NCBI GenBank assembly: GCA_026982145.1
Contig: JALSHQ010000393.1
Coordinates: 1 to 39,433 of the forward strand
Direction of reading: 5' to 3'
Length of the DNA stretch: 39,433 nt
Source: Gammaproteobacteria bacterium
GTDB lineage: Bacteria; Pseudomonadota; Gammaproteobacteria; SZUA-140
The notes under the pieces are model-generated. The model searched no databases. It was not told where the DNA came from and saw only the letters and a program-made list of their open reading frames with translations. The translations under genes and the position numbers were made by a program. Below, piece by piece: positions 9,007 to 34,652 of this stretch (within the stretch, counting starts at the first letter, position 1; the number at the start of each line of letters is the position of its first letter).

Positions 9007-9019
9007 TTGAGTGCCGCTT

Positions 9020-9661
9020 ATGAAACGCGTGACGATCATTTTCTTGAGTCTATTTTTTATCTCTGCCATCGCGCAGGCGACGCCGCCAATACAGCTCTAT
9101 CAAAAAGGTGTTAGCTACCAAGAGATTGCAGGTGCAGAATCTACTTATCAGGGGGATAAGGTCGATGTACTTGAGATGTTGTGGTATGGCTGTCAAAGCT
9201 GCTACATGATTCAGGGTGACCTTGAGCAGTGGGTAGAGGGTTCTGCAAAGGTGATCACCTATCGCCGCATGCCAGCGGTGACAGATGACAATATGATACT
9301 GCTTGCTAGAACTTTTTATGCGGCCGAAGTATTAGGTGTGATGGATAAGGTCCACAAACCTCTGTTTACAGCCATACATGATGCCAAACGGCAGATGACG
9401 ACGGAAGAGGATGTGGGTGAGTTCTTTGAGGAGCAAGGGGTGAGCAGCAAAGATTTCTTCTCTGCACTGAATAGTAATTACGTGAACGGCAAGCTGCGTC
9501 GTGCACGTATGATGAGCAGTCGTTATGGCATCAAGGGTGCTCCATCAGTGATTGTAGACGGCAAGTATCTGGTGGACCCCTCAATGGTGACAAGCCCTCG
9601 CCAGTTTGTGGCGGTCATCAATTTCTTGGTGAATAAGGTACGAACAACGGTGCGTCCTTAA
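9020..9661 (+). CDS. dsbA: Periplasmic DsbA-like thiol:disulfide oxidoreductase with a CQSC active site
   Basis: The ATG at 9020 (Met4 of track ORF 9011) gives the signal peptide MKRVTIIFLSLFFISAIAQA. The thioredoxin-fold motif is LEMLWYGCQSCY. The C-terminal GIKGAPSVIVDGKYLV resembles the DsbA cis-Pro loop region. Overall the sequence is collinear with E. coli DsbA as I remember it. Confidence 0.8.
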   Translation: MKRVTIIFLSLFFISAIAQATPPIQLYQKGVSYQEIAGAESTYQGDKVDVLEMLWYGCQSCYMIQGDLEQWVEGSAKVITYRRMPAVTDDNMILLARTFYAAEVLGVMDKVHKPLFTAIHDAKRQMTTEEDVGEFFEEQGVSSKDFFSALNSNYVNGKLRRARMMSSRYGIKGAPSVIVDGKYLVDPSMVTSPRQFVAVINFLVNKVRTTVRP

Positions 9662-9686
9662 CGGCGAAGCGAAAAGGAGGGTTCCT

Positions 9687-21185: not shown

Positions 21186-21830
21186 GTGGATAAGGCGCTG
21201 CTTGAAATTCGGGCACTGGAATGCGTGCGCGGAGATAAGCAGCTCTTTAGTGAGCTCTCATTTTCACTGGAGGCGGGTTCGTTGCTGCATGTGCATGGCC
21301 CTAACGGCAGCGGTAAAACGACGCTGCTGCGCGCCATTGCAGGGCTAGTGTTGCAGGAGTGCGGCGAGATTCGCTGGAATGGTGAATTGGTGACGCAGCA
21401 GCAGGATGAGTTTAACCGTGAGCTGCTCTATTTGGGACACCATTATGGGCTCAAGTTTGAGTTGACCGGTTATGAGAATTTAAAGGTGTTCGCCAACCTG
21501 AGTGGTTCTGAGACCAGCGAACATGAGGTGGAGGCGGCATTGACGCGCTTTGGTTTGGCGCACTGTGTTGAATTACCAGTGAAGGTGTTGTCGCAAGGGC
21601 AGAAACGGCGTGTTGCACTGGCGCGACTGCTACTGCAGCCATCGAAGTTGTGGATACTGGACGAGCCTTTTGTGGCGCTGGATGTGGCGGCGGTGGAGTT
21701 GTTGCTAGAGGTGATTAGGACGCATGTTGCCAGTGGTGGCATGGTGATTTTGACCACTCACCAAGAGGTGGCAGTAGAAGTGGGAAGTTTGCAGCACCTG
21801 CACCTTGGCTCTTCGGTGAGGCAGCACTGA
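21186..21830 (+). CDS. ccmA: Cytochrome c biogenesis ATP-binding export protein CcmA
   Basis: Walker A motif GPNGSGKTTLLR, ABC signature LSQGQKRRVALARL and Walker B motif LWILDEP. GTG start. First gene of the ccm operon. Confidence 0.93.
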   Translation: MDKALLEIRALECVRGDKQLFSELSFSLEAGSLLHVHGPNGSGKTTLLRAIAGLVLQECGEIRWNGELVTQQQDEFNRELLYLGHHYGLKFELTGYENLKVFANLSGSETSEHEVEAALTRFGLAHCVELPVKVLSQGQKRRVALARLLLQPSKLWILDEPFVALDVAAVELLLEVIRTHVASGGMVILTTHQEVAVEVGSLQHLHLGSSVRQH

Positions 21831-22498
21831 TGCTAGCGGCATTGAGATGTATGGTGATACGGGATCTAACGCTGGCGATGCGCCACCGTTCAGATGTGTT
21901 AACGACGGTGTTCTTTTTTATCATCGTGGTGAGCCTGTTTCCGCTGGGCGTAGGGCCTGATGCGCAGCTCTTAAAAGAGATGGCGGCGGGGGTAGTGTGG
22001 GTTGCCGCGCTGTTGGCATCGATGTTGTCGTTAACGCGTCTGTTTGCAGATGATTTCAATGACGGCACGCTGGAACAGCTGTTGTTGGTGCCGCAGCCGT
22101 TGGCACTGATTGTATTGGGCAAGGTGCTGGCACACTGGATTATTTCGGGTCTACCGCTGGTGCTGATGTCGCCGCTGCTAGGGTTGCAGTTTGGGCTTGA
22201 AGGTGACGAGTTGATTATGTTGATGGTGACCCTGCTGATAGGGACACCCGTGTTGAGTTTACTAGGCGCCATTGGCGCGGCGCTGACATTGGGGTTGCGC
22301 GGCGGTGGTGTGTTGGTATCGCTATTGGTGTTACCGCTTTACATTCCTGTGCTGATTTTTGGCGCGGGCGCGGTGACGGCAAGCGCGGCTGGGATGGGAG
22401 CCGATGGGCACCTATCATTGATGGGCGCAATATTGTTACTGGCGTTAGCACTTGCGCCATGGGCCTCGGCGGCAGCGCTTAGGATATCGGTGGAATAG
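21830..22498 (+). CDS. ccmB: Haem exporter membrane protein CcmB
   Basis: A 222-aa polytopic membrane protein. Its start shares one nt with the ccmA stop (TGATG). Its position and length are canonical. Confidence 0.92.
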   Translation: MLAALRCMVIRDLTLAMRHRSDVLTTVFFFIIVVSLFPLGVGPDAQLLKEMAAGVVWVAALLASMLSLTRLFADDFNDGTLEQLLLVPQPLALIVLGKVLAHWIISGLPLVLMSPLLGLQFGLEGDELIMLMVTLLIGTPVLSLLGAIGAALTLGLRGGGVLVSLLVLPLYIPVLIFGAGAVTASAAGMGADGHLSLMGAILLLALALAPWASAAALRISVE

Positions 22499-22545
22499 CT
22501 TTTGTATAAAGCGCTATAGAATTTTAAATTGAGAAGATAAGCATC

Positions 22546-23295
22546 GTGTTTAACTTGTTTAAATTTGCATCACCCGCGACTTTTTATCCGCTAGCGGGAA
22601 GGCTTGCGATGGGGTTTGGCATCGCCTCTGCCATTTTGCTGGCGATCGGGCTCTATATGAGCTTTTTTGTCGCGCCGACAGATTACAAACAAGGCGAAGG
22701 GTATCGCATCATGTTTATTCATGTGCCCGCAGCGTGGATGTCGATGCTCATCTATGTGGTGATGGCGTGCTGGGCGGCCGCCGGGATGATCTGGCATACA
22801 CGCCTCTCTTCGATGATGGCTTCGTCACTCGCACCCACCGGCGCGATGTTCACCTTTATTGCGTTGTGGACGGGCGCGCTGTGGGGCAAACCGATGTGGG
22901 GGGCTTGGTGGGTGTGGGATGCACGCCTAACCTCCGAGCTGATTTTACTATTTCTCTATATCGGCTTTATGGCGCTGGAGTCAGCGATTGATGACCCGCG
23001 TCGCGCCGCGCGTGCCAGTGGTCTTTTAGCGCTGGTAGGGGTGGTCAATGTGCCCATTATCTATTACTCCGTGCAGTGGTGGAATACGCTCCATCAAGGC
23101 AGTTCGATCAAGATTGTTGATGGCGGGGTCGAGAGCAGCATGTCTGAAATAATGGTTTGGACACTGTTGGTGATGACCTTCGCCTGCTGGTTCTACACCA
23201 TTGCAGTGGCGTTGTGTCGGGTGCGCAGTATCATCCTTGAGCGCGAAGCCAATACATCGTGGGTGAAAGAGTTATTGCAAGGGGCAAAATCATGA
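22546..23295 (+). CDS. ccmC: Haem exporter / haem-handling protein CcmC
   Basis: The WWD motif GAWWVWDARLTSELILLFLY is nearly identical to E. coli CcmC. Confidence 0.95.
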   Translation: MFNLFKFASPATFYPLAGRLAMGFGIASAILLAIGLYMSFFVAPTDYKQGEGYRIMFIHVPAAWMSMLIYVVMACWAAAGMIWHTRLSSMMASSLAPTGAMFTFIALWTGALWGKPMWGAWWVWDARLTSELILLFLYIGFMALESAIDDPRRAARASGLLALVGVVNVPIIYYSVQWWNTLHQGSSIKIVDGGVESSMSEIMVWTLLVMTFACWFYTIAVALCRVRSIILEREANTSWVKELLQGAKS

Positions 23296-23471
23296 GTGAA
23301 TGGTTCGCCATGGGTGGGCACGGCCTTTATATTTGGGGGTCATATGGCGTGGCGGCTTTGTATATGATTGTTGAAGTGATCCTCGTGGTGCGCCGCAGAC
23401 GCAGTTTAGTGCAGCGCTTGGGGCGGATGATCCGAATGAAAGCACACGCAGATTTAGAGGTACCGAAATGA
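23292..23471 (+). CDS. ccmD: Haem exporter protein CcmD
   Basis: The ATG at 23292 (Met12 of track ORF 23259) overlaps the ccmC stop (ATGA). The product is a 59-aa single-TM protein, MSEWFAMGGHGLYIWGSYGV..., which is typical of CcmD. Confidence 0.88.
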   Translation: MSEWFAMGGHGLYIWGSYGVAALYMIVEVILVVRRRRSLVQRLGRMIRMKAHADLEVPK

Positions 23472-23974
23472 AGTCTAGACATAAACGTATGGTGTTTATC
23501 GCCGTTGGCCTAGTGGCGTTGGGCGGTGCGGTCGCACTGATTCTGAATGCGCTCAACAGCAACATTAATCACTTTTTCAGCCCGACCGAAGTACACGCCG
23601 ATGCAGCGCCGAAAGATCGCTCTTTTCGTTTGGGCGGTCTGGTCGAGGTGGGTAGCATTCAGCGTGAAGATGACGGGCTAACCGTACACTTTCGGGTGAC
23701 CGATAACGCCGAAACCGTGCCGGTGGTCTACACTGGTATCCTGCCTGATCTATTCCGTGAAGGTGAAGGGGTGGTAGCGCAGGGCAAGATCGACAATGAG
23801 GGTGTTTTTCATGCAGATGAAGTGTTGGCTAAACATGATGAAACCTACATGCCACCGGAAGTCGCCGAGGCGCTTGAAAAGGCCGAACAGGCAAAACTAG
23901 AACAGGCCAAGGCGGCATCAGCCGTTGAGTCCTCGGTCGTTAAGCCGCTCACCCAGCCACAAGAGGGAATATAG
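23468..23974 (+). CDS. ccmE: Haem chaperone CcmE
   Basis: LPDLFREGEGVVAQG and the haem-binding histidine motif VLAKHDETYMPPEV. Confidence 0.96.
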   Translation: MKSRHKRMVFIAVGLVALGGAVALILNALNSNINHFFSPTEVHADAAPKDRSFRLGGLVEVGSIQREDDGLTVHFRVTDNAETVPVVYTGILPDLFREGEGVVAQGKIDNEGVFHADEVLAKHDETYMPPEVAEALEKAEQAKLEQAKAASAVESSVVKPLTQPQEGI

Positions 23975-25990
23975 ATGATACCTGAAATTGGACATTATGC
24001 GCTGGTGCTCGCGCTGTCGATGGCACTCATTCAAGCGGTGCTGCCGCTGATTGGTGCGCAGCAAGGGAAAGCGTCGTGGATCGCCGTGGCGCGCCCTGCC
24101 GCACAAGGGCAGTTTGCCTTTGTACTGGTCGCTTTTGGCTGCCTGACCTACGCTTTTATTGTGAATGATTTTTCGGTGCAATACGCGGCTAACCATTCCA
24201 ATTCACAGCTGCCGATTGAATACCGCATCGCAGCTGTCTGGGGGGGGCATGAAGGGTCGCTACTGCTGTGGGCACTGATGCTTGCGAGCTGGACGCTTGC
24301 GGTCTCTATTTTAAGCAAAAACCTGCCGGACGAAATGGTGGCGCGTGTGATTGGCGTGCTGGGGCTGATCTCGATCGGCTTTTTACTGTTTTTACTGCTG
24401 ACCTCTAATCCGTTTGATCGTCTTATACCGGCTGCGATGGATGGGCGGGACCTTAACCCACTGCTGCAAGACCCCGGTTTGATTATTCATCCGCCGATGC
24501 TCTACATGGGCTATGTCGGATTCTCTGTCGCTTTTGCCTTTGCGATCGCCGCACTGCTCAGTGGCCGGCTCGATGCTGCCTGGGCGCGCTGGTCTCGTCC
24601 GTGGACCACGGCGGCGTGGTGTTTTCTCACCATCGGTATCGCGCTTGGTAGCTGGTGGGCCTATTACGAGCTTGGCTGGGGCGGCTGGTGGTTTTGGGAT
24701 CCGGTCGAAAATGCTTCGTTTATGCCGTGGTTGGTGGGCACCGCACTGATCCATTCGCTGGCCGTGACTGAAAAACGGGGCAGCTTTAAAAACTGGACCG
24801 TACTGTTGGCGATCATTGCCTTCTCGATGAGCCTGCTGGGCACATTCCTTGTACGCTCCGGTGTGTTGACTTCCGTTCACGCTTTCGCGACGGATCCTGA
24901 TCGAGGTATCTATATTCTTGGCTTTCTTGCGGTGGCGATTGGCGGTTCACTCTTTCTGTATGCGGTGCGCGCACCGAGTGTCAGTAAGGGCGGTGAGTTT
25001 TCAATGCTGTCACGTGAAACGCTGTTGCTGAGCAACAACGTACTATTGGTTGTGGCGTGCGGCACTGTGCTGCTCGGTACGCTCTACCCGCTGCTGCTTG
25101 ATGCACTGGATATGGGCAAAATCTCAGTGGGGCCGCCGTACTTTAACTCCGTATTTGTGCCGCTGATGATGCCGCTGCTCTTTTTGATCGGACTGGCGCC
25201 GTTTGTGCGCTGGAAAAAAGCAAGCCTGCCGGAGCTAGCGCGTCTACTGCGCTGGGCTTTTGCTGTTTCACTGGTGGTGGCATTGATACTGCCATTTACG
25301 CTCGGCGAATGGCAGGTGATGGTGAGTGTGGGGCTGTTGATGGCCATCTGGATTGTCGCCACAATCATTCTCGGTTTCACCCGCCGTATTCAACGAGGCA
25401 ACGGCCTGAAAGGGATCTCAATGAGCTACTACGGCATGCAGACAGGGCATCTTGGCATGGCCGTTTTTGTGGTCGGGGTGACACTGATTGGCGGCTACGA
25501 GACCGAAAAAGATGTGCGCATGGATATCGGCGACGTCACCACGGTGGGAGGTTACACCTTCCGCTTTGACGGTGTGGTTGATCAGGCCGGGCCTAACTAT
25601 CAGGCCACACGTGGTTATATTCAGGTGATGAAAGATGGCGACAACGTGATGTTGTTGCACCCTGAGAAGCGTATCTACAACGTGCAGACCATGCCGATGA
25701 CCGAAGCGGCGATCGACAGCGGTTTTACACGGGATCTTTATGTCTCACTGGGAGAGCCTGTGAGCGGTGGTGCATGGAGTGTGCGCATCTACCACAAGCC
25801 GTTTGTGAACTGGATCTGGGGCGGCTGTGCACTCATGGCACTGGGTGGCTTTTTGGCGATGAGTGATCGTCGCTATCGCATCGCATCACGCCAGCGCAAA
25901 GAAGCTGAGAAAAAGCGGGTCGTCACGAAAAAAGCGACCAGCGGTAGCGCCACTGATGCACCCGCCGTAGCACGAGAGGCTAAGGTCTAA
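23975..25990 (+). CDS. ccmF: Cytochrome c haem lyase subunit CcmF
   Basis: A 671-aa polytopic protein with the WWD motif GWGGWWFWDPVENASFMPWL. Confidence 0.96.
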   Translation: MIPEIGHYALVLALSMALIQAVLPLIGAQQGKASWIAVARPAAQGQFAFVLVAFGCLTYAFIVNDFSVQYAANHSNSQLPIEYRIAAVWGGHEGSLLLWALMLASWTLAVSILSKNLPDEMVARVIGVLGLISIGFLLFLLLTSNPFDRLIPAAMDGRDLNPLLQDPGLIIHPPMLYMGYVGFSVAFAFAIAALLSGRLDAAWARWSRPWTTAAWCFLTIGIALGSWWAYYELGWGGWWFWDPVENASFMPWLVGTALIHSLAVTEKRGSFKNWTVLLAIIAFSMSLLGTFLVRSGVLTSVHAFATDPDRGIYILGFLAVAIGGSLFLYAVRAPSVSKGGEFSMLSRETLLLSNNVLLVVACGTVLLGTLYPLLLDALDMGKISVGPPYFNSVFVPLMMPLLFLIGLAPFVRWKKASLPELARLLRWAFAVSLVVALILPFTLGEWQVMVSVGLLMAIWIVATIILGFTRRIQRGNGLKGISMSYYGMQTGHLGMAVFVVGVTLIGGYETEKDVRMDIGDVTTVGGYTFRFDGVVDQAGPNYQATRGYIQVMKDGDNVMLLHPEKRIYNVQTMPMTEAAIDSGFTRDLYVSLGEPVSGGAWSVRIYHKPFVNWIWGGCALMALGGFLAMSDRRYRIASRQRKEAEKKRVVTKKATSGSATDAPAVAREAKV

Positions 25991-26523
25991 TGGTGCGGTA
26001 TCTGAAATATCTGGCACCGCTGGCAGTGTTTCTGGTGATGGTGTGGTTTTTAGGGCGCGGGCTTTACCTTAACCCACAAGAGGTGCCTTCACCGCTCGTC
26101 GATAAGCCTGCGCCAGTCTTCAGCGTAGAAGATCTGCATCATCCCGGGCAGCAGTTCAACTCTGAACAGATGAAAGGACAGGTGTGGATCTTGAACGTGT
26201 GGGCCTCATGGTGCCGTGCCTGTCGTGATGAGCACCCCCTGTTTGTTGAGCTGGGTCGTCAGAATTTCGTGCCCATTGTTGGGCTGAACTACAAAGACCA
26301 GCGTGGCGATGCGTTGCAGTGGCTGCGTGCATTGGGTGATCCTTACGTGGCGAGTGCTTACGATGTTGATGGCAAAGTGGGGATGGACTTTGGCGTATAC
26401 GGTGTGCCGGAAACCTACGTGATCGACCGAGACGGAATCATTCGCTACAAGCACATCGGGCCTGTTACGGCTCATTCGTTAGAGACAAAAGTGGTGTCGT
26501 TGGTGAAGGAGTTACAGAAATGA
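25990..26523 (+). CDS. ccmG: Thiol:disulfide interchange protein CcmG/DsbE
   Basis: N-terminal membrane anchor, thioredoxin motif WASWCRACRDEHP and the string GVYGVPETYVIDRDG. Confidence 0.94.
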   Translation: MVRYLKYLAPLAVFLVMVWFLGRGLYLNPQEVPSPLVDKPAPVFSVEDLHHPGQQFNSEQMKGQVWILNVWASWCRACRDEHPLFVELGRQNFVPIVGLNYKDQRGDALQWLRALGDPYVASAYDVDGKVGMDFGVYGVPETYVIDRDGIIRYKHIGPVTAHSLETKVVSLVKELQK

Positions 26524-26984
26524 AGCGTGCTTTAGCTTGTTTAATGTTGCTTTCTACGATGATGATTTCACCTTTAGTGCAGGCGAAAGAGGCAGCGTTA
26601 ATGGCAGCTGACCCTGTATTGGAGAAACGTGTGATGGCGCTGGCGTATGAGCTACGCTGTTTGGTGTGCCAGAACCAGTCACTGGGAGATTCACACTCCG
26701 ATTTTGCAATTGATCTCCGCAGCGAAATGCGTGAACAGATGAGCCAAGGCAAAAGTGATGAGCAGGTGATTGAGTTTATGGTGCAGCGTTATGGAGACTT
26801 CATCCGCTTTCGTCCCCCCGTTAAATCAACCACGCTTCTATTATGGTTCGGCCCGCTGCTGTTATTGATGATCGGAGCCTTAGTGCTGTTTTTCAGTTTG
26901 AAGGCACGTAAACGCACGGTTAAAACAACACCGTTGAATGATGAAGAACGCAAACGTGCAGAAGCGTTGTTAGACGACAAATAA
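26520..26984 (+). CDS. ccmH: Cytochrome c biogenesis protein CcmH
   Basis: LRCLVCQNQSLGDS motif, ...QRYGDFIRFRPP and a C-terminal TM helix. The gene is separate from ccmI, as in Pseudomonas/Shewanella-type operons. Confidence 0.94.
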   Translation: MKRALACLMLLSTMMISPLVQAKEAALMAADPVLEKRVMALAYELRCLVCQNQSLGDSHSDFAIDLRSEMREQMSQGKSDEQVIEFMVQRYGDFIRFRPPVKSTTLLLWFGPLLLLMIGALVLFFSLKARKRTVKTTPLNDEERKRAEALLDDK

Positions 26985-27072
26985 GCATTGGGCGATTTGA
27001 ATAAATTGGCCAATATCAGAGCAACCCGTAGAGAGTAAAGCCGCTAAGGCTGATGCAGAGGAAATTTAAGGC

Positions 27073-28362
27073 ATGATTATTTTTTGGATTGTGGCAGCGC
27101 TGCTGACGCTCGCGGCACTGTTGTTTTTATTACCCCCCCTGCTGCAGTTAGGCAAAAAACAGGACGAGGTGGTGATTGAGCAAGATGCGCTCAATGTTTC
27201 TATTTATAAAGACCAGCTAGCAGAGTTGGAGCAAGACCTCCTGAATGATGTGATTACGCAGGATCAATGCGAGCAAGGGAAGCAAGAGTTAGAACATCGC
27301 TTATTAGAAGATGTAACAGGTGAAGCGGGCAGTGTTGCAACTAGCGCGGAGGGCAGCAGCAAGATTACCGCCGGCGTTGTCACGGTGGTGGTGATTGCGA
27401 TGACGGTTTTGCTCTATCTTCAACTCGGCAAACTTGAGCTAGTGGCGCCTGTGGCGGAGAACGATACCATCGCACCTAAAATAGCTCCGGAGATGAGCCA
27501 AGATGAGATTGTTGATCAGGTCGCAATGATGGTGAGTCAGCTCTCGGCTCGCCTTGAGAAAGACCCCAGTGATGTGCAAGGGTGGGCAATGCTAGGGCGC
27601 TCATATTACGCATTGAGCCGCTATGGCGATGCGGTAGCCGCGTTCGCGAAAGCCGTTTCGATTGTTGATAACGATGCTCAGCTGCTGACAGATTATGCCG
27701 ACGCAATGGCGATGAGCAGTGGCGAGCAGACACTGGAAGGACGCCCGATGCAGCTGATCATGCGCGCGCTGAACCTTGATCCGCAGAATCAGAAAGCGTT
27801 GTGGCTAGCCGGCACCGCAGCTTATGAGCGTGCCGATTTTGAATCCGCCCTGATCTACTGGAAACGGATCTATTCGATGCTGGATCCAAACTCACAAACA
27901 GGGCAAACCATGGCGGGTAATATTGCAGAGACTGAGCAGTTGATGCAGGCGCAGCGTGCCAATGCGAATGGCGATAGTGCTGCGGTTACGAGTCCGGCTG
28001 CCACACCCGCGACTCAGCCGGCAAAAGTGAGCGGCGTGGTGACATTGTCACAATCACTCGCGGCAGAAGTGTTACCAACGGACACCATTTACATCTTTGC
28101 TCGCGCCATGCAGGGGCCGCGTATGCCGCTGGCCATTCTGAAAACCGAAGCGGGCAAGATGCCGATTGAATTTACCCTTGATGATTCGATGGCGATGGAT
28201 GCATCGATGAACCTCTCCAGCACGACGGAAGTGATGGTGATGGCGCGCATCTCACGCAGCGGAAATGCAACACCTCAAAGCGGTGACCTGCAGGGCGGGG
28301 TACAGAACGTGAAGATCGGTGCTTCTGGTATTGAGATTGTGATCGACGAGGTCATTCCTTAG
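27073..28362 (+). CDS. ccmI: Cytochrome c biogenesis TPR protein CcmI (CycH)
   Basis: Two N-terminal TM helices around a charged loop, then TPR repeats (GWAMLGRSYYALSRYGDAVAAFAKAV...). Its position after ccmH is canonical. Confidence 0.85.
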   Translation: MIIFWIVAALLTLAALLFLLPPLLQLGKKQDEVVIEQDALNVSIYKDQLAELEQDLLNDVITQDQCEQGKQELEHRLLEDVTGEAGSVATSAEGSSKITAGVVTVVVIAMTVLLYLQLGKLELVAPVAENDTIAPKIAPEMSQDEIVDQVAMMVSQLSARLEKDPSDVQGWAMLGRSYYALSRYGDAVAAFAKAVSIVDNDAQLLTDYADAMAMSSGEQTLEGRPMQLIMRALNLDPQNQKALWLAGTAAYERADFESALIYWKRIYSMLDPNSQTGQTMAGNIAETEQLMQAQRANANGDSAAVTSPAATPATQPAKVSGVVTLSQSLAAEVLPTDTIYIFARAMQGPRMPLAILKTEAGKMPIEFTLDDSMAMDASMNLSSTTEVMVMARISRSGNATPQSGDLQGGVQNVKIGASGIEIVIDEVIP

Positions 28363-28420
28363 CGATCACGTGGCGCGTCATCTCGTCTGAAACGGAAGGT
28401 GGCGCTGCGATGAGGGGGAT

Positions 28421-28987
28421 ATGATCTATAGAGCGGTGTGGCTTCCACTGTTGGCGTTGTTACTCACCGCGTGTGAGTTCGGCGAGCATCATAGTGCTGA
28501 GTCACTGCCTCGCCTTTCTGCGGGCGATCTTTTTCCCGAGGTGACGCTGCCGGGGTTGGATCGACCCGACCTGCCAATCTCACAGTTGCGGGGAAAGGTG
28601 GTGGTGCTTAATGTCTGGGCGACTTGGTGCGCTCCCTGTCGACGCGAGCTGCCAAGCCTACAACGCCTTGGTGAACAGCTGGATCGTGAGCGCTTTGCCG
28701 TGCTGGGGCTCTCTGTGGATGATGATAAACATGAGCCGCGTGAATACCTGATCGACCGAAAAATCAAGCTAACAAGCTATATTGATATGGATACATCAAT
28801 AGTGCGCAGCCTCGGTGTGCAAGGCTACCCCGATACCTATTTGATCGGCGTGGACGGACGCTTGCTGATGAACATTGAGGGTGAACGAGCGTGGGACAGC
28901 CCCCAAGTGGTGGCGGCGCTGGAGGCCGCTTACGAGGGAGATACCGCGCTGTTGCAAGGCATCCTGCATCAGGATATGAGAGAATAA
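28421..28987 (+). CDS. TlpA/ResA-like thioredoxin-fold lipoprotein
   Basis: Lipobox LLALLLTAC and redox motif WATWCAPCRRELP. It also carries the GVQGYPDTYLIGVDG string typical of the redoxin/AhpC-TSA fold. Confidence 0.85.
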   Translation: MIYRAVWLPLLALLLTACEFGEHHSAESLPRLSAGDLFPEVTLPGLDRPDLPISQLRGKVVVLNVWATWCAPCRRELPSLQRLGEQLDRERFAVLGLSVDDDKHEPREYLIDRKIKLTSYIDMDTSIVRSLGVQGYPDTYLIGVDGRLLMNIEGERAWDSPQVVAALEAAYEGDTALLQGILHQDMRE

Positions 28988-29033
28988 CGCTGGAATATTG
29001 ATGAAGGGCAATAACAGGCGAGGGGGCATGGTC

Positions 29034-29375
29034 ATGCGCAGTGAGAATTTTCTGAAAAAGGTGAGCCGTTATGGTGGCAGCGCTGTGCTGCTGTGCAGTA
29101 TGGCGTTACTGGGTATGCCACAGGCGATGGCGGGCAACCCGGTCAATGGTGGAAAAGTTTACAACCAGCACTGCAAAAAGTGCCACGGTGTTAGTGGCAA
29201 GAGCACCTTCCCGGGGGTGGCCGATTTTTCACGTGGCGAGGGGCTGTTAAGAGCGGATAGCGAGCTGCTGAAGAAAATTAGAAATGGCGGCGGGATGATG
29301 CCTGCATATCGCGGTATTTTGAAGGATAATGAGATCCTTGACGCGATCACCTACCTGAGAAAACTGCATCGATGA
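29034..29375 (+). CDS. Periplasmic monohaem class I cytochrome c
   Basis: One CXXCH motif (CKKCHG), with a distal Met candidate in GGGMMPAY. Signal peptide ...SAVLLCSMALLGMPQAMA. The start is chosen at the ATG at 29034 because GAGGGGG lies 7 nt upstream; 29001 and 29028 are alternatives. The stop overlaps the next start (ATGA). Confidence 0.85.
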   Translation: MRSENFLKKVSRYGGSAVLLCSMALLGMPQAMAGNPVNGGKVYNQHCKKCHGVSGKSTFPGVADFSRGEGLLRADSELLKKIRNGGGMMPAYRGILKDNEILDAITYLRKLHR

Positions 29376-30583
29376 GAGCAAGAGTCACCCTGATTTCGCT
29401 GGCATTATCGTCAGCGCTGCTCCTCTCTGCCTGCTCCAGCTCTGATGATGAGACCGCGACCCTGTCGGGCGATGAGTTATCATCCAAGCTAGCGCAGCCT
29501 GCCACAAATCCATCGCCATCGCTGACTGGAAAAAACCGTGTGGCACCATCGGAAGCCGAGCCCGCCGTCGGGTCAGTGCGCAGCACGCTACCGCGCGTGC
29601 TGGAGTCCTTTGGTGTCGGTGATGGTGTTTTTGTGCGTTCACTGGCGCTAGACCTGCACGACAAAGCGGTTTGGGTGGGCACTTCTGCAGGTGTGCTTGA
29701 GATCGATCTTGATAGTTACGACCTACGCGCTACCTATTCACGCAACGATGGCCTCGCCAATGAATATGTCTTTAGCATCATGGTCGATCGCCAAGGCAGC
29801 AAGTGGTTTGGCACCAATGGCGGCGGCATGACACGTTACCGCAATGGCGAGTGGAAAACATTTTTTCCGATGCATGGGCTGGCAGATTACTGGGTCTACT
29901 CTTTTGGTGAATCCAAAGAGGGGGACTTATGGGTGGGCACTTGGGGTGGCGCTAATCAGTTCGACAGTCACAGCGACACCTTTACCGCCACCTATGTGAC
30001 AGAGCTGGTGAATGAGTGGGTTTACGGCATTGCCAGTGATGACCAAGGGCGCATGTGGCTCGGCACCGAAGGGGGCATTTCGATGTTCGACGGTGAGCGT
30101 TGGCACGCATTCACACATGAAGATGGTGTGGGCGCACCCAACACCCGCAGCCTTCCCGTAAGCCAGAACACCGGGCTGGGCACACGTGAGCGCCATGACC
30201 TCAGTGTCGCCTCAGAAGGGGAACAGACCTATAACCCCGGTTATGTCTTCTCTGTATATGTGGCTGCAGATGGCCATGTTTGGGCGGGCACATGGGGCGG
30301 CGGCGTGAGTTTTTATGATGGGAAAAAATGGCAAAGCCTGACCACGGAAGATGGGCTGGCCGGCAACATCGTCTATAGCATCGCACAGGATAGTGAGGGT
30401 GTATTTTGGTTTGGCACCAACCAAGGCCTCTCTCGTTACGATGGCAAAGCGTGGCAGACCTTTGCTAAAGCGGGTGCCAATGGTTTGATCGATGACAATG
30501 TTTATGCAGTAATTACGCTACCGACAGGCGAGGTGTGGGTCGGTACACGTGGCGGTGTGACCCGCATCGGTTACGGCGACTAA
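29372..30583 (+). CDS. Stand-alone Reg_prop (two-component-regulator propeller type) beta-propeller lipoprotein
   Basis: Lipobox LLLSACSSSDD. About seven repeats of the W-x-G-T-x-G-G type are present: VWVGTSAGVLEID, KWFGTNGGGMTRY, LWVGTWGGANQFD, MWLGTEGGISMFD, VWAGTWGGGVSFYD, FWFGTNQGLSRYD and VWVGTRGGVTRI. Confidence 0.8.
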   Translation: MRARVTLISLALSSALLLSACSSSDDETATLSGDELSSKLAQPATNPSPSLTGKNRVAPSEAEPAVGSVRSTLPRVLESFGVGDGVFVRSLALDLHDKAVWVGTSAGVLEIDLDSYDLRATYSRNDGLANEYVFSIMVDRQGSKWFGTNGGGMTRYRNGEWKTFFPMHGLADYWVYSFGESKEGDLWVGTWGGANQFDSHSDTFTATYVTELVNEWVYGIASDDQGRMWLGTEGGISMFDGERWHAFTHEDGVGAPNTRSLPVSQNTGLGTRERHDLSVASEGEQTYNPGYVFSVYVAADGHVWAGTWGGGVSFYDGKKWQSLTTEDGLAGNIVYSIAQDSEGVFWFGTNQGLSRYDGKAWQTFAKAGANGLIDDNVYAVITLPTGEVWVGTRGGVTRIGYGD

Positions 30584-30639
30584 ACGCAGGCCGCATGTTT
30601 GTGCTCTGCTTGAAATGAACTGAATAAAAGGTAGAAAAC

Positions 30640-31983
30640 GTGAATCTGAATTTCAAGGCGTTAGCAGTCGTGGTGATCATCATGGGGCTGATGGTGGTGG
30701 GTGGATATAAACTGGGCACTCAGCAGGCGAGCAGTGAGTTGGCACTGCAAAAGAGATTGCCAGCCGCCGTGGGTAACAATATGAGTGCAGGTGAATTAAA
30801 GCCAGGGGCACAGGTGCCGCTTAACCACCCGCCGATGGAAAGCCCGGCCCCTGCCGCGACACAAACCACAACTTTTCCTCAACCTGCAACCGCCCAAGCT
30901 AATCTTACGGGCTTGGGCGGGAGTGCCGGAACGCCTGCGCCGCAGCTTAGCGGGGAGAGTAAATTTGCCCATTTTCGCGTCGGTAACCGCAATGTAAAAG
31001 GGCTGGCGATTGATGGCCACTATGTCTGGATCGGCACCTCAGGCGGTGTGATTCGTTACAACACCCTTGATGACAAATATGATGTGTATGATAACCGCAT
31101 CGAAGGGTTGCTCTCTAACGGTGTTTTTCATGTGAGCCGGATTGATAACAAACTCGCCGTGGGCACCTATGGCGGTGGTCTTTCAGTGATGGATATCGAT
31201 ACCAGTGTCTGGACAAACTACAACATTCCCATCGGGCTTGCTGATCAGTTTGTTTACGACATGCAAAAAACCAGCAATGGTGACATTTGGATCGCCACTT
31301 GGTCTGGCGCAAACCGCATCCGCGGAGGAGACCTAGACGACCACTCAAAGTGGGACATGTTCACCGTTGAAAATACCAACGGTGGCATTCCAAACCCGTG
31401 GGTATACGGGGTTGAAGAGGGGCTGAATGGTGACATCTGGCTCGCGACCGAAGAGGGGCTGGCACTCTTCCGCGGAGGAAAATGGGAGAATTGGCAGCAT
31501 AAAGATGGCCTAGGTGCACCGATCGAAATCGTACGTGATGCGATCACTTCAAGAAACGACCCTGCAAAGTCATCCCAACATCACGCCCGCCAAAAAAGCG
31601 AACAGGGGTTGGAAGATGTTGATATCGCCTATAACCCAAACTACATCATCTCACTTGCGGTCGATAGCGACGGCATTGTCTGGGCGGGCACTTGGGGGGG
31701 CGGGCTGGCGCGTTTTGATGGTGAAAACTGGCTCAATTACACCACTGCGGATGGCCTGCCGGGGAACCACATCTTCATGCTGCATATCGATATCGACGGC
31801 CAACTCTGGATCGGCACCAGCAAAGGGCTCGCACGCTTTAAAAAAGAAGGTGAAGGTTTTGATGTGATGACCACGCTCGATGGCCTCTATGCCAACAATG
31901 TTTTCTCAATGGCGAAGGGGGAAGATGGCACCATGTGGGTCGGTAGCTTTGGTGGCGTTGCTAAACTGAATGCCCCGCTCTAG
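30640..31983 (+). CDS. Stand-alone Reg_prop beta-propeller protein with an N-terminal membrane anchor; paralogue of the preceding gene
   Basis: GTG start. TM helix ALAVVVIIMGLMVVGG, then a Pro/Ala/Gln-rich linker. The same repeat type recurs: VWIGTSGGVIRYN, LAVGTYGGGLSVMD, IWIATWSGANRI, IWLATEEGLALF, VWAGTWGGGLARFD, LWIGTSKGLARF and MWVGSFGGVAKL. Confidence 0.8.
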   Translation: MNLNFKALAVVVIIMGLMVVGGYKLGTQQASSELALQKRLPAAVGNNMSAGELKPGAQVPLNHPPMESPAPAATQTTTFPQPATAQANLTGLGGSAGTPAPQLSGESKFAHFRVGNRNVKGLAIDGHYVWIGTSGGVIRYNTLDDKYDVYDNRIEGLLSNGVFHVSRIDNKLAVGTYGGGLSVMDIDTSVWTNYNIPIGLADQFVYDMQKTSNGDIWIATWSGANRIRGGDLDDHSKWDMFTVENTNGGIPNPWVYGVEEGLNGDIWLATEEGLALFRGGKWENWQHKDGLGAPIEIVRDAITSRNDPAKSSQHHARQKSEQGLEDVDIAYNPNYIISLAVDSDGIVWAGTWGGGLARFDGENWLNYTTADGLPGNHIFMLHIDIDGQLWIGTSKGLARFKKEGEGFDVMTTLDGLYANNVFSMAKGEDGTMWVGSFGGVAKLNAPL

Positions 31984-31991
31984 CTGCTGTT

Positions 31992-32016
31992 TTCACTGTT
32001 AAGAAAAGTGAATTTT
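31992..32016 (+). terminator. Weak intrinsic-terminator-like hairpin after the propeller genes
   Basis: TTCACT (31992-31997), a 9-nt loop, AGTGAA (32007-32012), then TTTT (32013-32016). The stem is short and AT-rich. Confidence 0.3.
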
Positions 32017-32125
32017 GTCGTGGCTCAATGAGTGGGCAGTTACCATTAGGGTGACAGCGGCATCGAAAACAGTTTTATAGGACGCTGATTTTCTTGATTT
32101 AAACAGTCGGGAATTAACCCTTTGT

Positions 32126-32154
32126 TTGACCTTGTGTAGTAATTTTCCTACTAT
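32126..32154 (+). promoter_or_regulatory. Sigma70-like promoter candidate for the haem-sensor GGDEF-EAL gene
   Basis: TTGACC (32126-32131), a 17-nt spacer and TACTAT (32149-32154), about 30 nt upstream of the TTG start at 32184. Confidence 0.45.
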
Positions 32155-32183: not shown

Positions 32184-34652
32184 TTGAAAAGCTTGGGCAC
32201 GCGCATCGCGGTTGTCATCTCTTCTGTATTAGTTGTCCTTCTGTTGATTGTCGCTTTTTCTGTGGATCATCAACTCACTCGCTCGATGAAGAACGAGGAT
32301 ATCACTCAAATAAAAACACATGCCCGCACCATGCTGGCCAGCCTGCAAACGTTGATGTTAAGTGGCCAAGGGGTGCTGGCGCGCGAGTGGCTTGAGCGAA
32401 TGCGCGGTGAGTCCGGGGTGGTTGAAATAGCGATACTGCGTAAAGATGGGCGGGAAGCCTTTACCGATACCACCACCATTGATGCGGTAAACCTTTTTTT
32501 GCAGCAGCCCCGGTTTAGTCGCCAGCCAGTGGAGCCCAAGTATCAACCACAAAATCAGGAATCCACCCATGTGAGCAACGCCCTCGCGGGCGGTGTCGTT
32601 GTGGCTGATGATCAGCCACAACAGGTGGTGATTTATATGCCGATCAAGGCGAAGCTGGAGTGCCTCACTTGTCACGGTTATGACACTTCCCAAATGCGTG
32701 GGGTGCTCAAACTTGCCGTTTCGACTGAACAAGCGAGCAAGCGCATTCAGGCGATGCGCTTTAATCTATGGGGGATGTCGACGCTGGTGGTGTTGATGCT
32801 GGCACTGGCGCTCTGGATCTCACTTCGCCAGAGCGTCGTGCGCCCTATTGCAGCCCTGCGGGATGCCTTGTGGCAAGCGGGCAAAGGCGACCGTAACATT
32901 AAGCTGGCGGTGAACCGGCGTGATGAAATTGGTGAACTCAGCGCAGTGTTTAACCGTATGCAGCAACAGCTCAGCGCAACGGAGGCACGCATTGGGGCGG
33001 TGATGACGAGCGTGATCGAGCCAATTGTCATCATCGATGATCATGGTTTGATTGAACAGGTGAATCCCGCGCTCGAGCAAACTTTTGGTTATCGAGAGAA
33101 TGAGCTGATCGGGCGCAGCGTTTCGGTGTTGATGTCAGCAGGTGATCGTCCCGAGCATGAGCGAGCGATTGAACAGTACCTGTTAAAAGGGCGGGGTAGC
33201 GCGAGTGAGCGCAGCCGAGAAATTGAATGTTTGCGTCACGATGGCACGCTTTTTTCTGCTGAGATTACGATCAGTGAAATGCATGTCGATGACAGTTGCC
33301 GTTTTATCTGCATCGTGCGCGATATTTCTGAGCGCAAAGCGTACCTTGATGCGATTGAATATCAGGCGCTGCATGATGTGCTAACCGGGCTGCCTAATCG
33401 CGTATTGCTGCTGGACCGGTTGCGTCAGAGCGCGCGCGGTGCCTCGCGTACCCAGCAGCCATTAGCGTTATTGGTGATTGACCTCGATCACTTTAAACAG
33501 GTGAACGACACCCTTGGCCACCACAATGGCGACATCATTCTAAAGCTTGCCGCCGAGCGGATGAATACCGTGTTGCGCAGTTCAGATACGGTGGCTCGAT
33601 TGGGTGGGGATGAATTCGCAATATTACTGCCCGCCACTGATCGGGCGCAGGCGGAACAGATCGCCGAAAAATTACGCGCCGTGCTGGAGCAGCCCTGTGA
33701 GCTTGAAGGGCACACTTTTTACGTCGGTGCCAGTGTCGGCATTGCCATGTACCCAGAACATGGCGTCGATGATGTGAGTTTAATGCAGCATGCTGATGTT
33801 GCCATGTATGTTGCGAAGCGGGCAAAAAGTGGCCACGCCGTTTATCAAGAGGGGCAGCGTCATGGCAGCCTGCCGCAACTCTCATTGATGAATGAGCTGC
33901 GCGCCGCGGTCGATAACAATGAACTGCGGCTCTGCTATCAGCCGGTGATCAATCTAAAATCAGGCAGTATCAGCGGTGTTGAGGCGCTGGTGCGCTGGCA
34001 GCACCCCACAAAAGGGTTGCTCTACCCCAATGCGTTTATCCCGCTTGCGGAGCAGACGGGGCTGATTGGCCCGCTAACGCTGTGGGTGTTTGAGCAGGCG
34101 ATGTTGCAGAGCAGTGAGTGGGAGTCATTGGGGCTGGAGCTGCGTGTTTCGGTTAATCTCTCGGCGCGCAGCCTACATGATGCGAGATTTCCGGGTCAGT
34201 TGACTCAACTGATCGATTCGGCGGGCATTCAGGCTGAGCGTCTGCGCCTAGAAATTACTGAGAGTGCCATTATCACCGATCCAGAATATACCGCCAACAT
34301 GCTCAATAATCTGAGCAAGATGGGGGTTCGTATTTCGATTGACGACTTTGGCACCGGCTACTCATCGCTCGCTTATCTAAAACAGCTGCCGGTCGATGAG
34401 ATCAAAATAGACCGCTCGTTCGTGACCCACATGCTGGAAGATGAGAGCGATGAAGTGATTGTCCGCTCAACGATTGACCTCGCTCATAACATCGGCATGA
34501 AAGTGGTCGCGGAAGGGATCGAGCAACAAGCGGTTTACGACCGGCTGGTAGCACTCGGTTGTGATGCCGCGCAGGGGTTTCACATGGGACGTCCCCTCTC
34601 TCCTGCTGCATTTTTAACTTGGTTAAAATCATCCCCGTGGGGGGTGAGATAA
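32184..34652 (+). CDS. c-di-GMP signalling protein: periplasmic CXXCH (haem c) sensor domain, then HAMP, PAS, GGDEF and EAL domains
   Basis: TTG start; there is no in-frame ATG that would keep TM1. TM1 is IAVVISSVLVVLLLIVAF. The ~165-aa periplasmic domain ends in PIKAKLECLTCHGYDTSQMRGVLKLAV (CLTCH at nt 32661-32675). TM2, a HAMP region (RPIAALRDAL...IGELSAVFNRM) and a PAS domain follow. GGDEF is intact with an I-site (RSSDTVARLGGDEF). The EAL domain is intact (EALVRW, LEITES, DDFGTGYSSLAYLK, QGFHMGRP). Confidence 0.9.
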   Translation: MKSLGTRIAVVISSVLVVLLLIVAFSVDHQLTRSMKNEDITQIKTHARTMLASLQTLMLSGQGVLAREWLERMRGESGVVEIAILRKDGREAFTDTTTIDAVNLFLQQPRFSRQPVEPKYQPQNQESTHVSNALAGGVVVADDQPQQVVIYMPIKAKLECLTCHGYDTSQMRGVLKLAVSTEQASKRIQAMRFNLWGMSTLVVLMLALALWISLRQSVVRPIAALRDALWQAGKGDRNIKLAVNRRDEIGELSAVFNRMQQQLSATEARIGAVMTSVIEPIVIIDDHGLIEQVNPALEQTFGYRENELIGRSVSVLMSAGDRPEHERAIEQYLLKGRGSASERSREIECLRHDGTLFSAEITISEMHVDDSCRFICIVRDISERKAYLDAIEYQALHDVLTGLPNRVLLLDRLRQSARGASRTQQPLALLVIDLDHFKQVNDTLGHHNGDIILKLAAERMNTVLRSSDTVARLGGDEFAILLPATDRAQAEQIAEKLRAVLEQPCELEGHTFYVGASVGIAMYPEHGVDDVSLMQHADVAMYVAKRAKSGHAVYQEGQRHGSLPQLSLMNELRAAVDNNELRLCYQPVINLKSGSISGVEALVRWQHPTKGLLYPNAFIPLAEQTGLIGPLTLWVFEQAMLQSSEWESLGLELRVSVNLSARSLHDARFPGQLTQLIDSAGIQAERLRLEITESAIITDPEYTANMLNNLSKMGVRISIDDFGTGYSSLAYLKQLPVDEIKIDRSFVTHMLEDESDEVIVRSTIDLAHNIGMKVVAEGIEQQAVYDRLVALGCDAAQGFHMGRPLSPAAFLTWLKSSPWGVR

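What the first reader, a model, noticed from the sequence alone, without database searches (positions are those of the whole stretch)
28421..31983. The ccm operon continues into a TlpA-like lipoprotein, a monohaem cytochrome c and two stand-alone Reg_prop beta-propellers
Seen: the four extra genes follow ccmI on the same strand. The gaps are 58, 46 and 56 nt (46 nt if the cytochrome starts at 29034), plus one ATGA overlap between the cytochrome and the first propeller, which indicates translational coupling. The only terminator-like structure comes after the second propeller.

Established knowledge: Reg_prop repeats are normally the periplasmic sensor domain of hybrid two-component systems. 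Here they are stand-alone, exported, and coupled to a cytochrome.

Inference: the cytochrome plus the propeller pair may form a periplasmic redox module, either a substrate-binding propeller with a dedicated electron carrier or a redox-sensing complex. Its maturation would be co-regulated with System I. I know of no described function for such a trio.
Basis: partly seen in the sequence, partly recalled or inferred. Interest (0 to 1): 0.6.

Follow-up and report, generated by a model that had tools for sequence, protein, structure and literature searches.

The report
Cytochrome-coupled stand-alone propeller sensor module
The genes after ccmI are a widely conserved module, a small cytochrome c made together with two stand-alone sensor-type beta-propellers, which travels with the Uet extracellular-electron-uptake gene cluster and with signalling genes, so it is most likely a periplasmic redox sensor and not part of cytochrome maturation; a 2022 paper listed these genes but no one has tested their function.

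Summary
ccmI is followed on the same strand by a TlpA-like thioredoxin lipoprotein, a class-I monohaem cytochrome c, and two seven-bladed Reg_prop propellers. The gaps are 58, 46 and 56 nt, and the cytochrome and first propeller share an ATGA overlap. The "terminator" after the second propeller is weak.

The cytochrome-prop1-prop2 trio is a conserved unit. It occurs in more than 579 species-level genomes of Gamma- and Betaproteobacteria and in one further class. The cytochrome stop and prop1 start overlap in 52 of 65 loci.

The trio tracks the undecahaem UetJ cluster. In an even sample of 301 genomes, 27 of 29 trio carriers also have UetJ, usually 7-30 kb away.

Its neighbours are signalling genes in nearly every lineage:
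- In the window's lineage, a haem-c GGDEF-EAL protein follows.
- Elsewhere, a histidine kinase, a sigma54 response regulator and a Sel1 protein precede it, and a hybrid kinase or a haem-c diguanylate cyclase follows.

Linkage to ccm is lineage-specific.

My best reading (about 0.55) is an unfused, cytochrome-coupled version of the Reg_prop double-propeller sensor that reports periplasmic redox state for the Uet system.

Eddie et al. 2022 already listed these genes as a "secondary cytochrome cluster". This scan also noted the module in five other genomes. No function has been tested.

The parts
3635..6316 (+). UetJ undecahaem cytochrome gene. This is context: the cluster that the module co-occurs with.
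   Evidence: Orthologues at 52-67% identity occur in 27 of 29 trio-carrying genomes of the class sample and in 10 of 10 further genomes checked. Named after Eddie et al. 2022.
21186..28362 (+). ccmABCDEFGHI, System I cytochrome c maturation, directly upstream.
   Evidence: Pfam and NCBIfam hits for CcmG, CcmH and CcmI. The whole order is conserved in 14 of 14 family loci.
28369..28412 (+). GC-rich hairpin in the ccmI-tlpA gap, with no U tract.
   Evidence: Minimum free energy -20.9 kcal/mol, z = -1.13. It is not a canonical terminator. Its meaning is unknown.
28421..28987 (+). TlpA/ResA-like thioredoxin-fold lipoprotein (WCAPC motif, lipobox LTAC).
   Evidence: Pfam AhpC-TSA 69 bits and Redoxin 61 bits. 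It scores below the NCBIfam cut-offs for TlpA, ResA and DsbE. It lies upstream of the trio in most Gamma and Beta loci but not in the other class.
29034..29375 (+). Class-I monohaem cytochrome c (CKKCH, GMMPAY) with a signal peptide. An alternative start is at 28998.
   Evidence: Pfam Cytochrome_CBB3 and Cytochrom_C. Weak PDB sequence matches to c552, c6 and CcoP haem domains.
29372..29375 (+). ATGA stop/start overlap between the cytochrome and prop1.
   Evidence: Read directly from the sequence. A 4-nt or 1-nt overlap occurs in 52 of 65 orthologous loci.
29372..30583 (+). prop1: a seven-bladed Reg_prop propeller, a lipoprotein in this genome, with an invariant loop (NTGLGTRxRHDL) inserted between blades 4 and 5.
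   Evidence: Pfam Reg_prop 91 bits. AF2 model pLDDT is above 90 in the propeller. Foldseek top hits are BT4673, BT4663 and BT3049. Alignment A1.
30640..31983 (+). prop2: N-terminal membrane anchor, a disordered roughly 70-aa linker with an xPxxHPP motif, and a seven-bladed Reg_prop propeller with a helical insertion carrying an invariant His-His.
   Evidence: Pfam Reg_prop 74.5 bits. AF2 model. Foldseek top hit BT4663. Alignment A2. Motif census.
31992..32018 (+). Weak AT-rich hairpin plus UUUUGU after prop2.
   Evidence: It folds no better than shuffled sequence and the terminator scan did not call it.
32184..34652 (+). Probable output partner: a membrane protein with a periplasmic CxxCH (haem-c) domain, then HAMP-PAS-GGDEF-EAL.
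   Evidence: Pfam. CLTCH lies at about residue 160. An orthologue with CxxCH at the same place follows prop2 in 18-19 gammaproteobacterial loci. A haem-c GGDEF (Mcp40H-20_sensor) follows prop2 in another class. A promoter-like site at 32126-32154 suggests it may have its own transcript.

Best explanation
The cytochrome c, prop1 and prop2 form a periplasmic accessory sensor that belongs to the extended Uet (undecahaem extracellular-electron-uptake) locus.

Shown:
- The three genes are one conserved, translationally coupled unit.
- Each propeller is a single seven-bladed Reg_prop domain, the fold that is used as a fused pair in the sensor head of Bacteroides hybrid two-component systems.
- The unit co-occurs with UetJ.
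- The unit is flanked by signalling genes in almost every lineage.

Inferred:
- prop1 (a lipoprotein or soluble) and the membrane-tethered prop2 pair up to rebuild a double-propeller sensor head.
- The small His/Met cytochrome docks on it, probably at the invariant loops inserted between blades 4 and 5, and equilibrates with the periplasmic electron pool fed by Uet.
- The resulting redox or occupancy state passes to a neighbouring membrane transducer. In this genome that is the haem-c HAMP-PAS-GGDEF-EAL protein, which would change c-di-GMP and so attachment. In most other lineages it is a histidine kinase with a sigma54-type response regulator, which would change gene expression.
- The TlpA-like lipoprotein is a dedicated thiol reductase that keeps the CxxCH cysteines of these periplasmic haem proteins reduced. 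It explains why the module sits next to cytochrome-maturation genes, but it is not part of the sensor itself.
For: - Conserved unit: the same order occurs in 14 of 14 family loci and in about 75 of 80 loci across classes. More than 579 loci were found in species-representative genomes. The cytochrome/prop1 stop-start overlap occurs in 52 of 65 loci.
- Sensor-type fold: Pfam Reg_prop is well above threshold. Both AF2 models best match the sensor domains of BT4663, BT4673 and BT3049. Each protein has seven blades.
- Link to Uet: in an even class-level sample of 301 genomes, 27 have both, 2 have the trio only, 3 have UetJ only and 269 have neither, spread over 18 families. Where contigs allow, the two lie 7-30 kb apart on the same contig. 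UetJ lies 8-11 kb upstream of the trio in 4 of 5 named genomes, including Ramlibacter lithotrophicus, R. monticola and Hydrogenophaga; in the fifth, Piscinibacter caeni, the distance could not be measured. UetJ is present in 5 of 5 genomes of another class.
- Signalling neighbours: a haem-c GGDEF-EAL follows prop2 in 18-19 loci. A sigma54 response regulator (51-72% identical) with a Sel1 protein, and usually a histidine kinase, lies directly upstream of the cytochrome in about 48 loci. A soluble PAS hybrid kinase follows prop2 in 19 loci, 18-22 nt downstream on the same strand in the four Burkholderiales loci where the gap was measured. In L119 the order is HK, RR, Sel1, cytochrome, prop1, prop2, haem-c GGDEF, with abutting or overlapping genes.
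- No sigma54 promoter lies between the response regulator and the trio, so the trio looks like a co-operonic partner, not a target.
- The inserted loops are invariant across classes, and the prop1 loop is modelled with low confidence, as expected of a partner-binding loop.
Against: - No experiment or expression data could be obtained.
- Complex formation was not modelled, because no multimer tool was available.
- prop2 has only a few cytoplasmic residues, so it cannot signal across the membrane itself. The Burkholderiales hybrid kinase is soluble and could not touch periplasmic proteins.
- Two lineages lack one member: G051 has no cytochrome and G100 has no prop1.
- One close relative lacks the GGDEF-EAL (L025/L033), and some genera have it without the haem domain.
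- G136 and G290 carry UetJ but no trio was found.
- Gene neighbourhood cannot tell a sensor from a regulated structural component.
Confidence: 0.55

Rival explanations
1. Non-sensory electron relay or scaffold. The two propellers, one at the outer membrane and one tethered to the inner membrane, hold the monohaem cytochrome in the periplasm as a fixed stepping stone between the Uet trihaem cytochromes and the cbb3 oxidase or bc1 complex. This would resemble the proposed role of the NHL propellers UetH and UetI.
For: Strong co-occurrence and co-location with UetJ. The cytochrome resembles CcoP, c552 and c6 electron carriers. prop1 and prop2 are anchored differently. Translational coupling implies fixed stoichiometry. 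The pentahaem and NHL genes often lie just downstream.
Against: The Reg_prop fold is known only from sensor heads. prop1 has a lipobox-like signal in only 40 of 80 loci. Signalling genes flank the module in nearly every lineage, and in about 48 loci a sigma54 response regulator, usually with a kinase, sits directly upstream of the cytochrome. G051 keeps the propellers without the cytochrome.
Confidence: 0.22
2. Cytochrome-maturation accessory. The TlpA-like protein, the cytochrome and the propellers help System I or System II to mature the very large Uet multihaem cytochromes, by holding apocytochromes or by handling haem or thiols.
For: In Gamma- and Betaproteobacteria the module always lies directly downstream of ccm(F)HI or ccsBA-TPR genes and a thioredoxin-like gene. 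The uet cluster also carries a DsbA-like gene.
Against: In another class the trio has no maturation genes within about 11 kb upstream and instead sits in a kinase/regulator operon. ccm genes are reported as near-universal, yet the trio occurs in only about 10% of sampled genomes and tracks UetJ. In about 48 loci the regulator and Sel1 genes, usually with a kinase, separate the thioredoxin from the trio. No known maturation system uses a finished cytochrome c or a propeller.
Confidence: 0.1
3. Enzyme. One or both propellers bind a substrate and a cofactor and pass electrons to the dedicated cytochrome, as PQQ dehydrogenases or cd1-type enzymes do.
For: Very high conservation (55-65% identity between classes), with invariant His, Arg and Asp residues in the inserted loops. 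Tight coupling to a cytochrome. Weak sub-threshold hits to Vgb lyase.
Against: No HMM or fold match to PQQ-, d1-, N2OR- or amine-dehydrogenase-type propellers. The top matches are non-catalytic sensor domains. There is no cofactor-binding motif. Most of the conserved residues are the structural Reg_prop repeat.
Confidence: 0.06
4. Unrelated neighbours. The four genes merely happen to lie after ccmI.
For: No transcript data are available. A hairpin lies in the ccmI-tlpA gap.
Against: Synteny is conserved across three classes and the stop/start overlaps are conserved.
Confidence: 0.02

Closest known systems
[quoted passage not shown] Tenderia electrophaga (ALP54648.1 thioredoxin, ALP54909.1 partial-CcoP cytochrome, ALP54649.1 and ALP54650.1 periplasmic ligand-binding sensor proteins, ALP54651.1 haem c-di-GMP phosphodiesterase; Eddie et al. 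2022)
   Same: The described order is the same: bat operon, ten-gene System I, then thioredoxin, small cytochrome, two sensor-domain proteins and a haem GGDEF-EAL, followed by NHL and pentahaem genes (compared). It is almost certainly the orthologous locus.
   Different: The paper only lists the orthogroups and suggests 'regulation'. It does not describe the translational coupling, the spread to Burkholderiales and another class, the kinase/sigma54-regulator variant, or the genome-wide tie to UetJ. I matched orthology by description only, not by sequence.
Periplasmic sensor domain of Bacteroides hybrid two-component systems (BT4663, BT4673, BT3049)
   Same: The same Reg_prop seven-bladed fold, and these are the best structural matches. 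Two propellers are used together, and they are associated with a kinase and a response regulator.
   Different: Here the two propellers are separate polypeptides. There is no Y_Y_Y domain, no fused kinase/receiver/AraC output, a cytochrome c partner, and an extra conserved loop between blades 4 and 5. Sequence identity is about 20%. The Bacteroides ligand is a glycan, which is unlikely here.
Accessory periplasmic co-sensors of membrane transducers (TorT/TorS, LuxP/LuxQ; YfiB/YfiR/YfiN for a diguanylate cyclase), from established knowledge
   Same: The logic is the same: separate periplasmic or lipoprotein components modulate the periplasmic domain of a kinase or a GGDEF protein encoded beside them.
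   Different: The folds are unrelated. None of those systems uses a cytochrome or a propeller. The interaction is inferred here, not shown.
Haem-c PAS-like periplasmic sensor domains (Geobacter GSU0582/GSU0935, Pfam Mcp40H-20_sensor; Tll0287-like)
   Same: The transducer next to the trio carries a single CxxCH in its periplasmic domain. Pfam gives Mcp40H-20_sensor in L119 and a weak Tll0287-like hit in the window.
   Different: The window's domain has no PDB sequence match. Those known sensors work without propeller or cytochrome partners.
MtoD/Cyc1-type periplasmic monohaem cytochromes of iron oxidisers, from established knowledge
   Same: A small class-I cytochrome c encoded with an outer-membrane electron-uptake system.
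   Different: Those are free shuttles and are not coupled to propellers. No sequence comparison was made.

Membership tests
Reg_prop (PF07494) two-component-regulator propeller | Repeats match the Pfam model above the gathering score. | tested here: met
   prop1 scores 91 bits and prop2 74.5 bits against a cut-off of 20.4.
Reg_prop (PF07494) two-component-regulator propeller | Seven-bladed propeller fold like the solved hybrid two-component sensor domains. | tested here: met
   AF2 models have pLDDT above 90 in the propellers. Foldseek top hits are BT4663, BT4673 and BT3049 at E 1e-15 to 1e-17.
Hybrid two-component system sensor (Bacteroides type) | Two propellers plus a Y_Y_Y domain fused to a transmembrane kinase, receiver and DNA-binding output in one protein. 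| tested here: not met
   Each protein has one propeller, no Y_Y_Y hit and no output domain. Kinase and regulator are separate genes where present.
Class I cytochrome c | A single CxxCH, a distal Met and a class-I fold profile. | tested here: met
   CKKCH and GMMPAY are present in the sequence. Cytochrome_CBB3 scores 41.5 bits against 27, and Cytochrom_C 32.4 against 21.3. Haem attachment itself cannot be tested here.
TlpA (NF047696), ResA and DsbE/CcmG equivalogs | Score above the curated NCBIfam cut-off. | tested here: not met
   TlpA 92.5 against 230, ResA 71.5 against 170, DsbE 53.7 against 123. It is a thioredoxin-fold CxxC protein (Pfam) but not an orthologue of any named one.
Extended Uet locus (Eddie et al. 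2022) | Co-occurrence and co-location with uetJ and its ccsBA-TPR genes. | tested here: met
   27 of 29 trio genomes in the class sample carry UetJ. UetJ is present in 10 of 10 further genomes, and lies 8-11 kb upstream in 4 of the 5 named ones. The window itself has UetJ at 3635-6316.
Extended Uet locus (Eddie et al. 2022) | Sequence orthology to ALP54648-ALP54651 and ALP54909. | tested here: inconclusive
   Those sequences were not on hand. The match rests on the paper's description of gene order and domains.
PQQ-, haem d1-, N2OR- or amine-dehydrogenase-type catalytic propellers | An HMM or fold match to those families. | tested here: not met
   No such Pfam or NCBIfam hits, and none among the top 50 Foldseek matches.

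The most novel reading that the evidence does not exclude
The trio is the first dedicated sensor of extracellular electron uptake. In this reading it is an unfused Reg_prop double propeller that reads the redox state of a bound cytochrome c fed by the Uet conduit. It then switches c-di-GMP turnover, or a sigma54 regulon, so that cells attach to and invest in a mineral or cathode only when electrons actually flow.
Probability: 0.3. Interest if true: 0.75.

Novelty: new variant of a known kind. Interest (0 to 1): 0.5.

Why it matters
It is not known how iron-oxidising and electrode-oxidising bacteria sense that a solid electron donor is delivering electrons, or how they couple that to attachment and to expression of their cytochrome conduits.

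This module is a concrete candidate. It tracks the Uet system across three classes, its fold is that of a sensor, it has a built-in redox partner, and it sits beside c-di-GMP and sigma54 regulators.

It also shows that Reg_prop sensor heads exist as free, split proteins outside Bacteroidota.

The module occurs in cultured strains of Ramlibacter, Hydrogenophaga and Piscinibacter, so the idea can be tested genetically. The uncultured Tenderiales do not allow that.

Tried and rejected
- Expression of the Ca. Tenderia electrophaga orthologues: the stored copy of Table S3 of PMC5371394 is truncated and does not contain ALP54648-ALP54651.
- A sigma54 promoter (TGGCAC-N5-TTGC) between the response regulator and the trio, or anywhere in L119: matches were at chance level only. 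I dropped the idea that the trio is the regulator's target.
- Canonical terminators or promoters inside the array: none were called. The hairpin after prop2 is not significant.
- Assignment of the propellers to an enzyme family: none found.
- PDB sequence match for the haem-c sensor domain of the GGDEF-EAL: none.
- Literature search linking Reg_prop to extracellular electron transfer: no papers. Papers on OmcE and nanowire clusters mention only NHL-type propellers.
- The xPxxHPP motif of the prop2 linker as a defining feature: present in only 31-42 of 59 loci, so I kept it as a side note.
- An orthologue of the sigma54 regulator in the window's own genome (75% complete): only generic 36-40% paralogues.

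Full report
**What is in the window.**
- ccmI ends at 28362.
- A 188-aa thioredoxin-fold lipoprotein (LTAC lipobox, WCAPC motif) runs from 28421 to 28987.
- A roughly 113-aa cytochrome c with one CKKCH and a GMMPAY methionine runs from 29034 to 29375. An upstream TTG at 28998 is possible, but orthologue N-termini favour 29034.
- prop1 starts at 29372 inside an ATGA that also holds the cytochrome's stop codon, and ends at 30583.
- prop2 runs from 30640 to 31983.
- The gaps are 58, 46 and 56 nt.

Pfam gives AhpC-TSA/Redoxin for the thioredoxin, Cytochrome_CBB3 for the cytochrome, and Reg_prop for both propellers, far above threshold. NCBIfam finds no equivalog for any of them. The thioredoxin scores well below the TlpA, ResA and DsbE cut-offs, so "TlpA-like" is a description and not an orthology call.

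The claimed terminator after prop2 is a 6-bp AT-rich hairpin that folds no better than shuffled sequence, and the consensus scan did not call it. A stronger GC hairpin without a U tract sits in the ccmI-tlpA gap.

**The proteins.** Alignments of orthologues (A1, A2) and AlphaFold models show that each propeller protein is a single seven-bladed Reg_prop propeller.
- prop1 has a lipoprotein signal here, but a lipobox-like signal in only 40 of 80 loci.
- prop2 has an N-terminal membrane helix and a disordered linker of about 70 residues. The linker often carries an xPxxHPP motif (31-42 of 59 loci).
- Both proteins carry an extra segment at the same place, between blades 4 and 5. It runs from H-x-DGLGAP to YNPNY. 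Its interior differs between the paralogues but is invariant within each across classes: NTGLGTRxRHDL in prop1, and NDPxKxSxHHAxQKxExG, modelled as a short helix, in prop2.

Foldseek places both models next to the periplasmic sensor domains of the Bacteroides hybrid two-component systems BT4663, BT4673 and BT3049 (E 1e-15 to 1e-17). Generic WD40 proteins and Vgb lyase follow. No PQQ-, d1- or N2OR-type propeller appears near the top. The cytochrome is an ordinary class-I His/Met type with weak similarity to c552, c6 and the CcoP haem domain.

**Conservation.**
- Within the window's family, the order ccmA-I, thioredoxin, cytochrome, prop1, prop2 is identical in 14 of 14 loci from 11 genera. A GGDEF-EAL gene follows in 12 of the 14.
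- prop1 has thousands of close relatives in metagenomes.
- A scan of species-representative genomes found more than 579 loci at 52-80% identity. They include Tenderiales-like Gammaproteobacteria, Thiohalobacter, Sedimenticola, Gallionella/Sideroxyarcus, Rhodocyclaceae, Hydrogenophilales and Burkholderiales. Cultured carriers include Ramlibacter lithotrophicus, R. monticola, Hydrogenophaga sp. and Piscinibacter caeni.
- In the 80 best loci the cytochrome-prop1-prop2 trio is intact in about 75.
- The cytochrome stop and prop1 start overlap by 4 nt or 1 nt in 52 of 65 loci. That degree of conserved translational coupling argues for a fixed-stoichiometry complex.

**What the module travels with.** That is System II, not ccm.

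I then searched an even class-level sample of 301 genomes with prop1 and with UetJ.
- 27 genomes have both, 2 have only the trio (fragmented MAGs of one family), 3 have only UetJ, and 269 have neither.
- The 27 span 18 families. Relatedness means the nominal P value overstates the case.
- Where contigs allow, the two features lie 7-30 kb apart on the same contig.
- All five named genomes I checked have a UetJ orthologue; in four of them it lies 8-11 kb upstream of the trio, and in Piscinibacter caeni the distance could not be measured.
- The trio also occurs in another class of the phylum, and 5 of 5 such genomes have UetJ.

The stable association is therefore with Uet. The link to System I is lineage-specific.

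**Signalling neighbours.** This was the most informative result. Two architectures emerge.
- Type A is the window's lineage and related Gammaproteobacteria, about 33 loci. The order is ccm, thioredoxin, cytochrome, prop1, prop2, then a membrane protein with a periplasmic CxxCH domain followed by HAMP-PAS-GGDEF-EAL.
- Type B covers Burkholderiales, Gallionellaceae, Rhodocyclaceae, Thiohalobacter, Sedimenticola and the other class, about 48 loci. The order is uetJ-ccsBA-TPR or ccmF(G)HI, thioredoxin, a membrane histidine kinase, a sigma54-dependent response regulator (51-72% identical across classes), a Sel1/TPR protein, cytochrome, prop1, prop2. A soluble PAS hybrid kinase often follows (Burkholderiales; 18-22 nt gap in the loci where it was measured), or a haem-c HAMP-PAS-GGDEF (other class; Pfam Mcp40H-20_sensor).
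- In locus L119 these seven genes abut or overlap.
- No sigma54 promoter consensus lies between the regulator and the trio. The trio therefore looks like a co-operonic partner of the two-component system, not its target.
- One lineage (G051) keeps kinase, regulator, Sel1, prop1 and prop2 but has no cytochrome. Another (G100) has the cytochrome and prop2 only.

**Interpretation.** The combination points to a periplasmic accessory sensor of the Uet system. The features that support this are a sensor-type fold, two propellers as in the fused sensor head of hybrid two-component systems, a translationally coupled redox protein, genome-wide linkage to an electron-uptake conduit, and signalling genes on one or both sides in nearly every lineage. 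In effect it is an unfused, cytochrome-coupled counterpart of the Reg_prop double-propeller sensor. Its output would be c-di-GMP in this genome and a sigma54 regulon elsewhere.

The steps from "conserved unit" to "complex", and from "complex" to "signal", are inferred. I put this reading at about 0.55. The rivals are:
- A purely structural electron relay, about 0.22.
- A cytochrome-maturation helper, about 0.10. It is weakened by the class in which no maturation genes are nearby and by the kinase/regulator genes that separate the thioredoxin from the trio.
- A catalytic propeller, about 0.06, with no HMM or fold support.
- Chance adjacency, which the conservation data exclude.

**Comparison with the literature.** Eddie et al. 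2022 (bioRxiv 10.1101/2022.05.06.490989, section 11) describe the same layout in Ca. Tenderia electrophaga: a bat operon, a ten-gene System I, then a conserved cluster. The cluster contains a thioredoxin, a cytochrome with a partial CcoP domain, two "periplasmic ligand-binding sensor domain" proteins and a haem-containing c-di-GMP phosphodiesterase. They suggest a role in regulation. The gene set is therefore not new.

The later Uet papers I read (Gallionellaceae pangenome; Leptothrix) do not mention the gene set; they report UetJ with other Uet subunits or its porin. I found no paper linking Reg_prop propellers to extracellular electron transfer. First readers of this scan noted the same module in five other genomes without follow-up.

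What appears to be new here is:
- the cross-class distribution,
- the conserved translational coupling,
- the quantitative tie to UetJ,
- the kinase/sigma54-regulator/Sel1 variant.

I therefore rate the finding as a new variant of a known kind (Reg_prop sensors) and of moderate interest.

Noticed in passing
window 28369-28412: A GC-rich hairpin (-20.9 kcal/mol) with no following U tract fills most of the ccmI-tlpA gap. It could be a processing or stability element, or an attenuator between the ccm genes and the module.
   Followed up: partly
window 30800-30835 (prop2 residues about 55-66): The disordered linker of prop2 carries VPLNHPPM. An xPxxHP motif recurs in 31-42 of 59 orthologues, and 53 of 59 have at least one His in the linker. 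The conserved His could ligate a haem or a metal.
   Followed up: partly
window 9011-9661: The last gene of the uet/ccsBA/TPR block encodes a DsbA-like protein (WYGCQSCY). The locus therefore carries both an oxidising and a reducing (tlpA-like) thiol-disulfide protein.
   Followed up: no
L119 6729-16118; L110 (G051): A variant operon: histidine kinase, sigma54 response regulator, Sel1 protein, (cytochrome), prop1, prop2, haem-c GGDEF, with abutting or overlapping genes. G051 has the same operon without the cytochrome.
   Followed up: yes
L113 (G100) 8591-10193: A reduced form with only the cytochrome and a prop2-type propeller, beside NHL, pentahaem and UetJ-like genes.
   Followed up: partly
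L074, L076: In two gammaproteobacterial loci a Kelch-repeat lipoprotein follows prop2 in place of a signalling gene. In L053, L081 and L060, extra c-type cytochromes follow.
   Followed up: partly
G002:C80:35952-37171 (L010): In one genome of the same genus, prop1 is split by an in-frame TGA or frameshift near residue 317. This may be a pseudogene or an assembly error.
   Followed up: no
window 32126-32154: A sigma70-like site (TTGACC-17-TACTAT) lies 30 nt upstream of the GGDEF-EAL start, in a 200-nt gap. The output gene may have its own promoter.
   Followed up: no
L029 8820-8990: A 56-aa ORF is called between ccmI and the thioredoxin gene on a 1.4-Mb contig of a relative. There is no counterpart in the window.
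   Followed up: no
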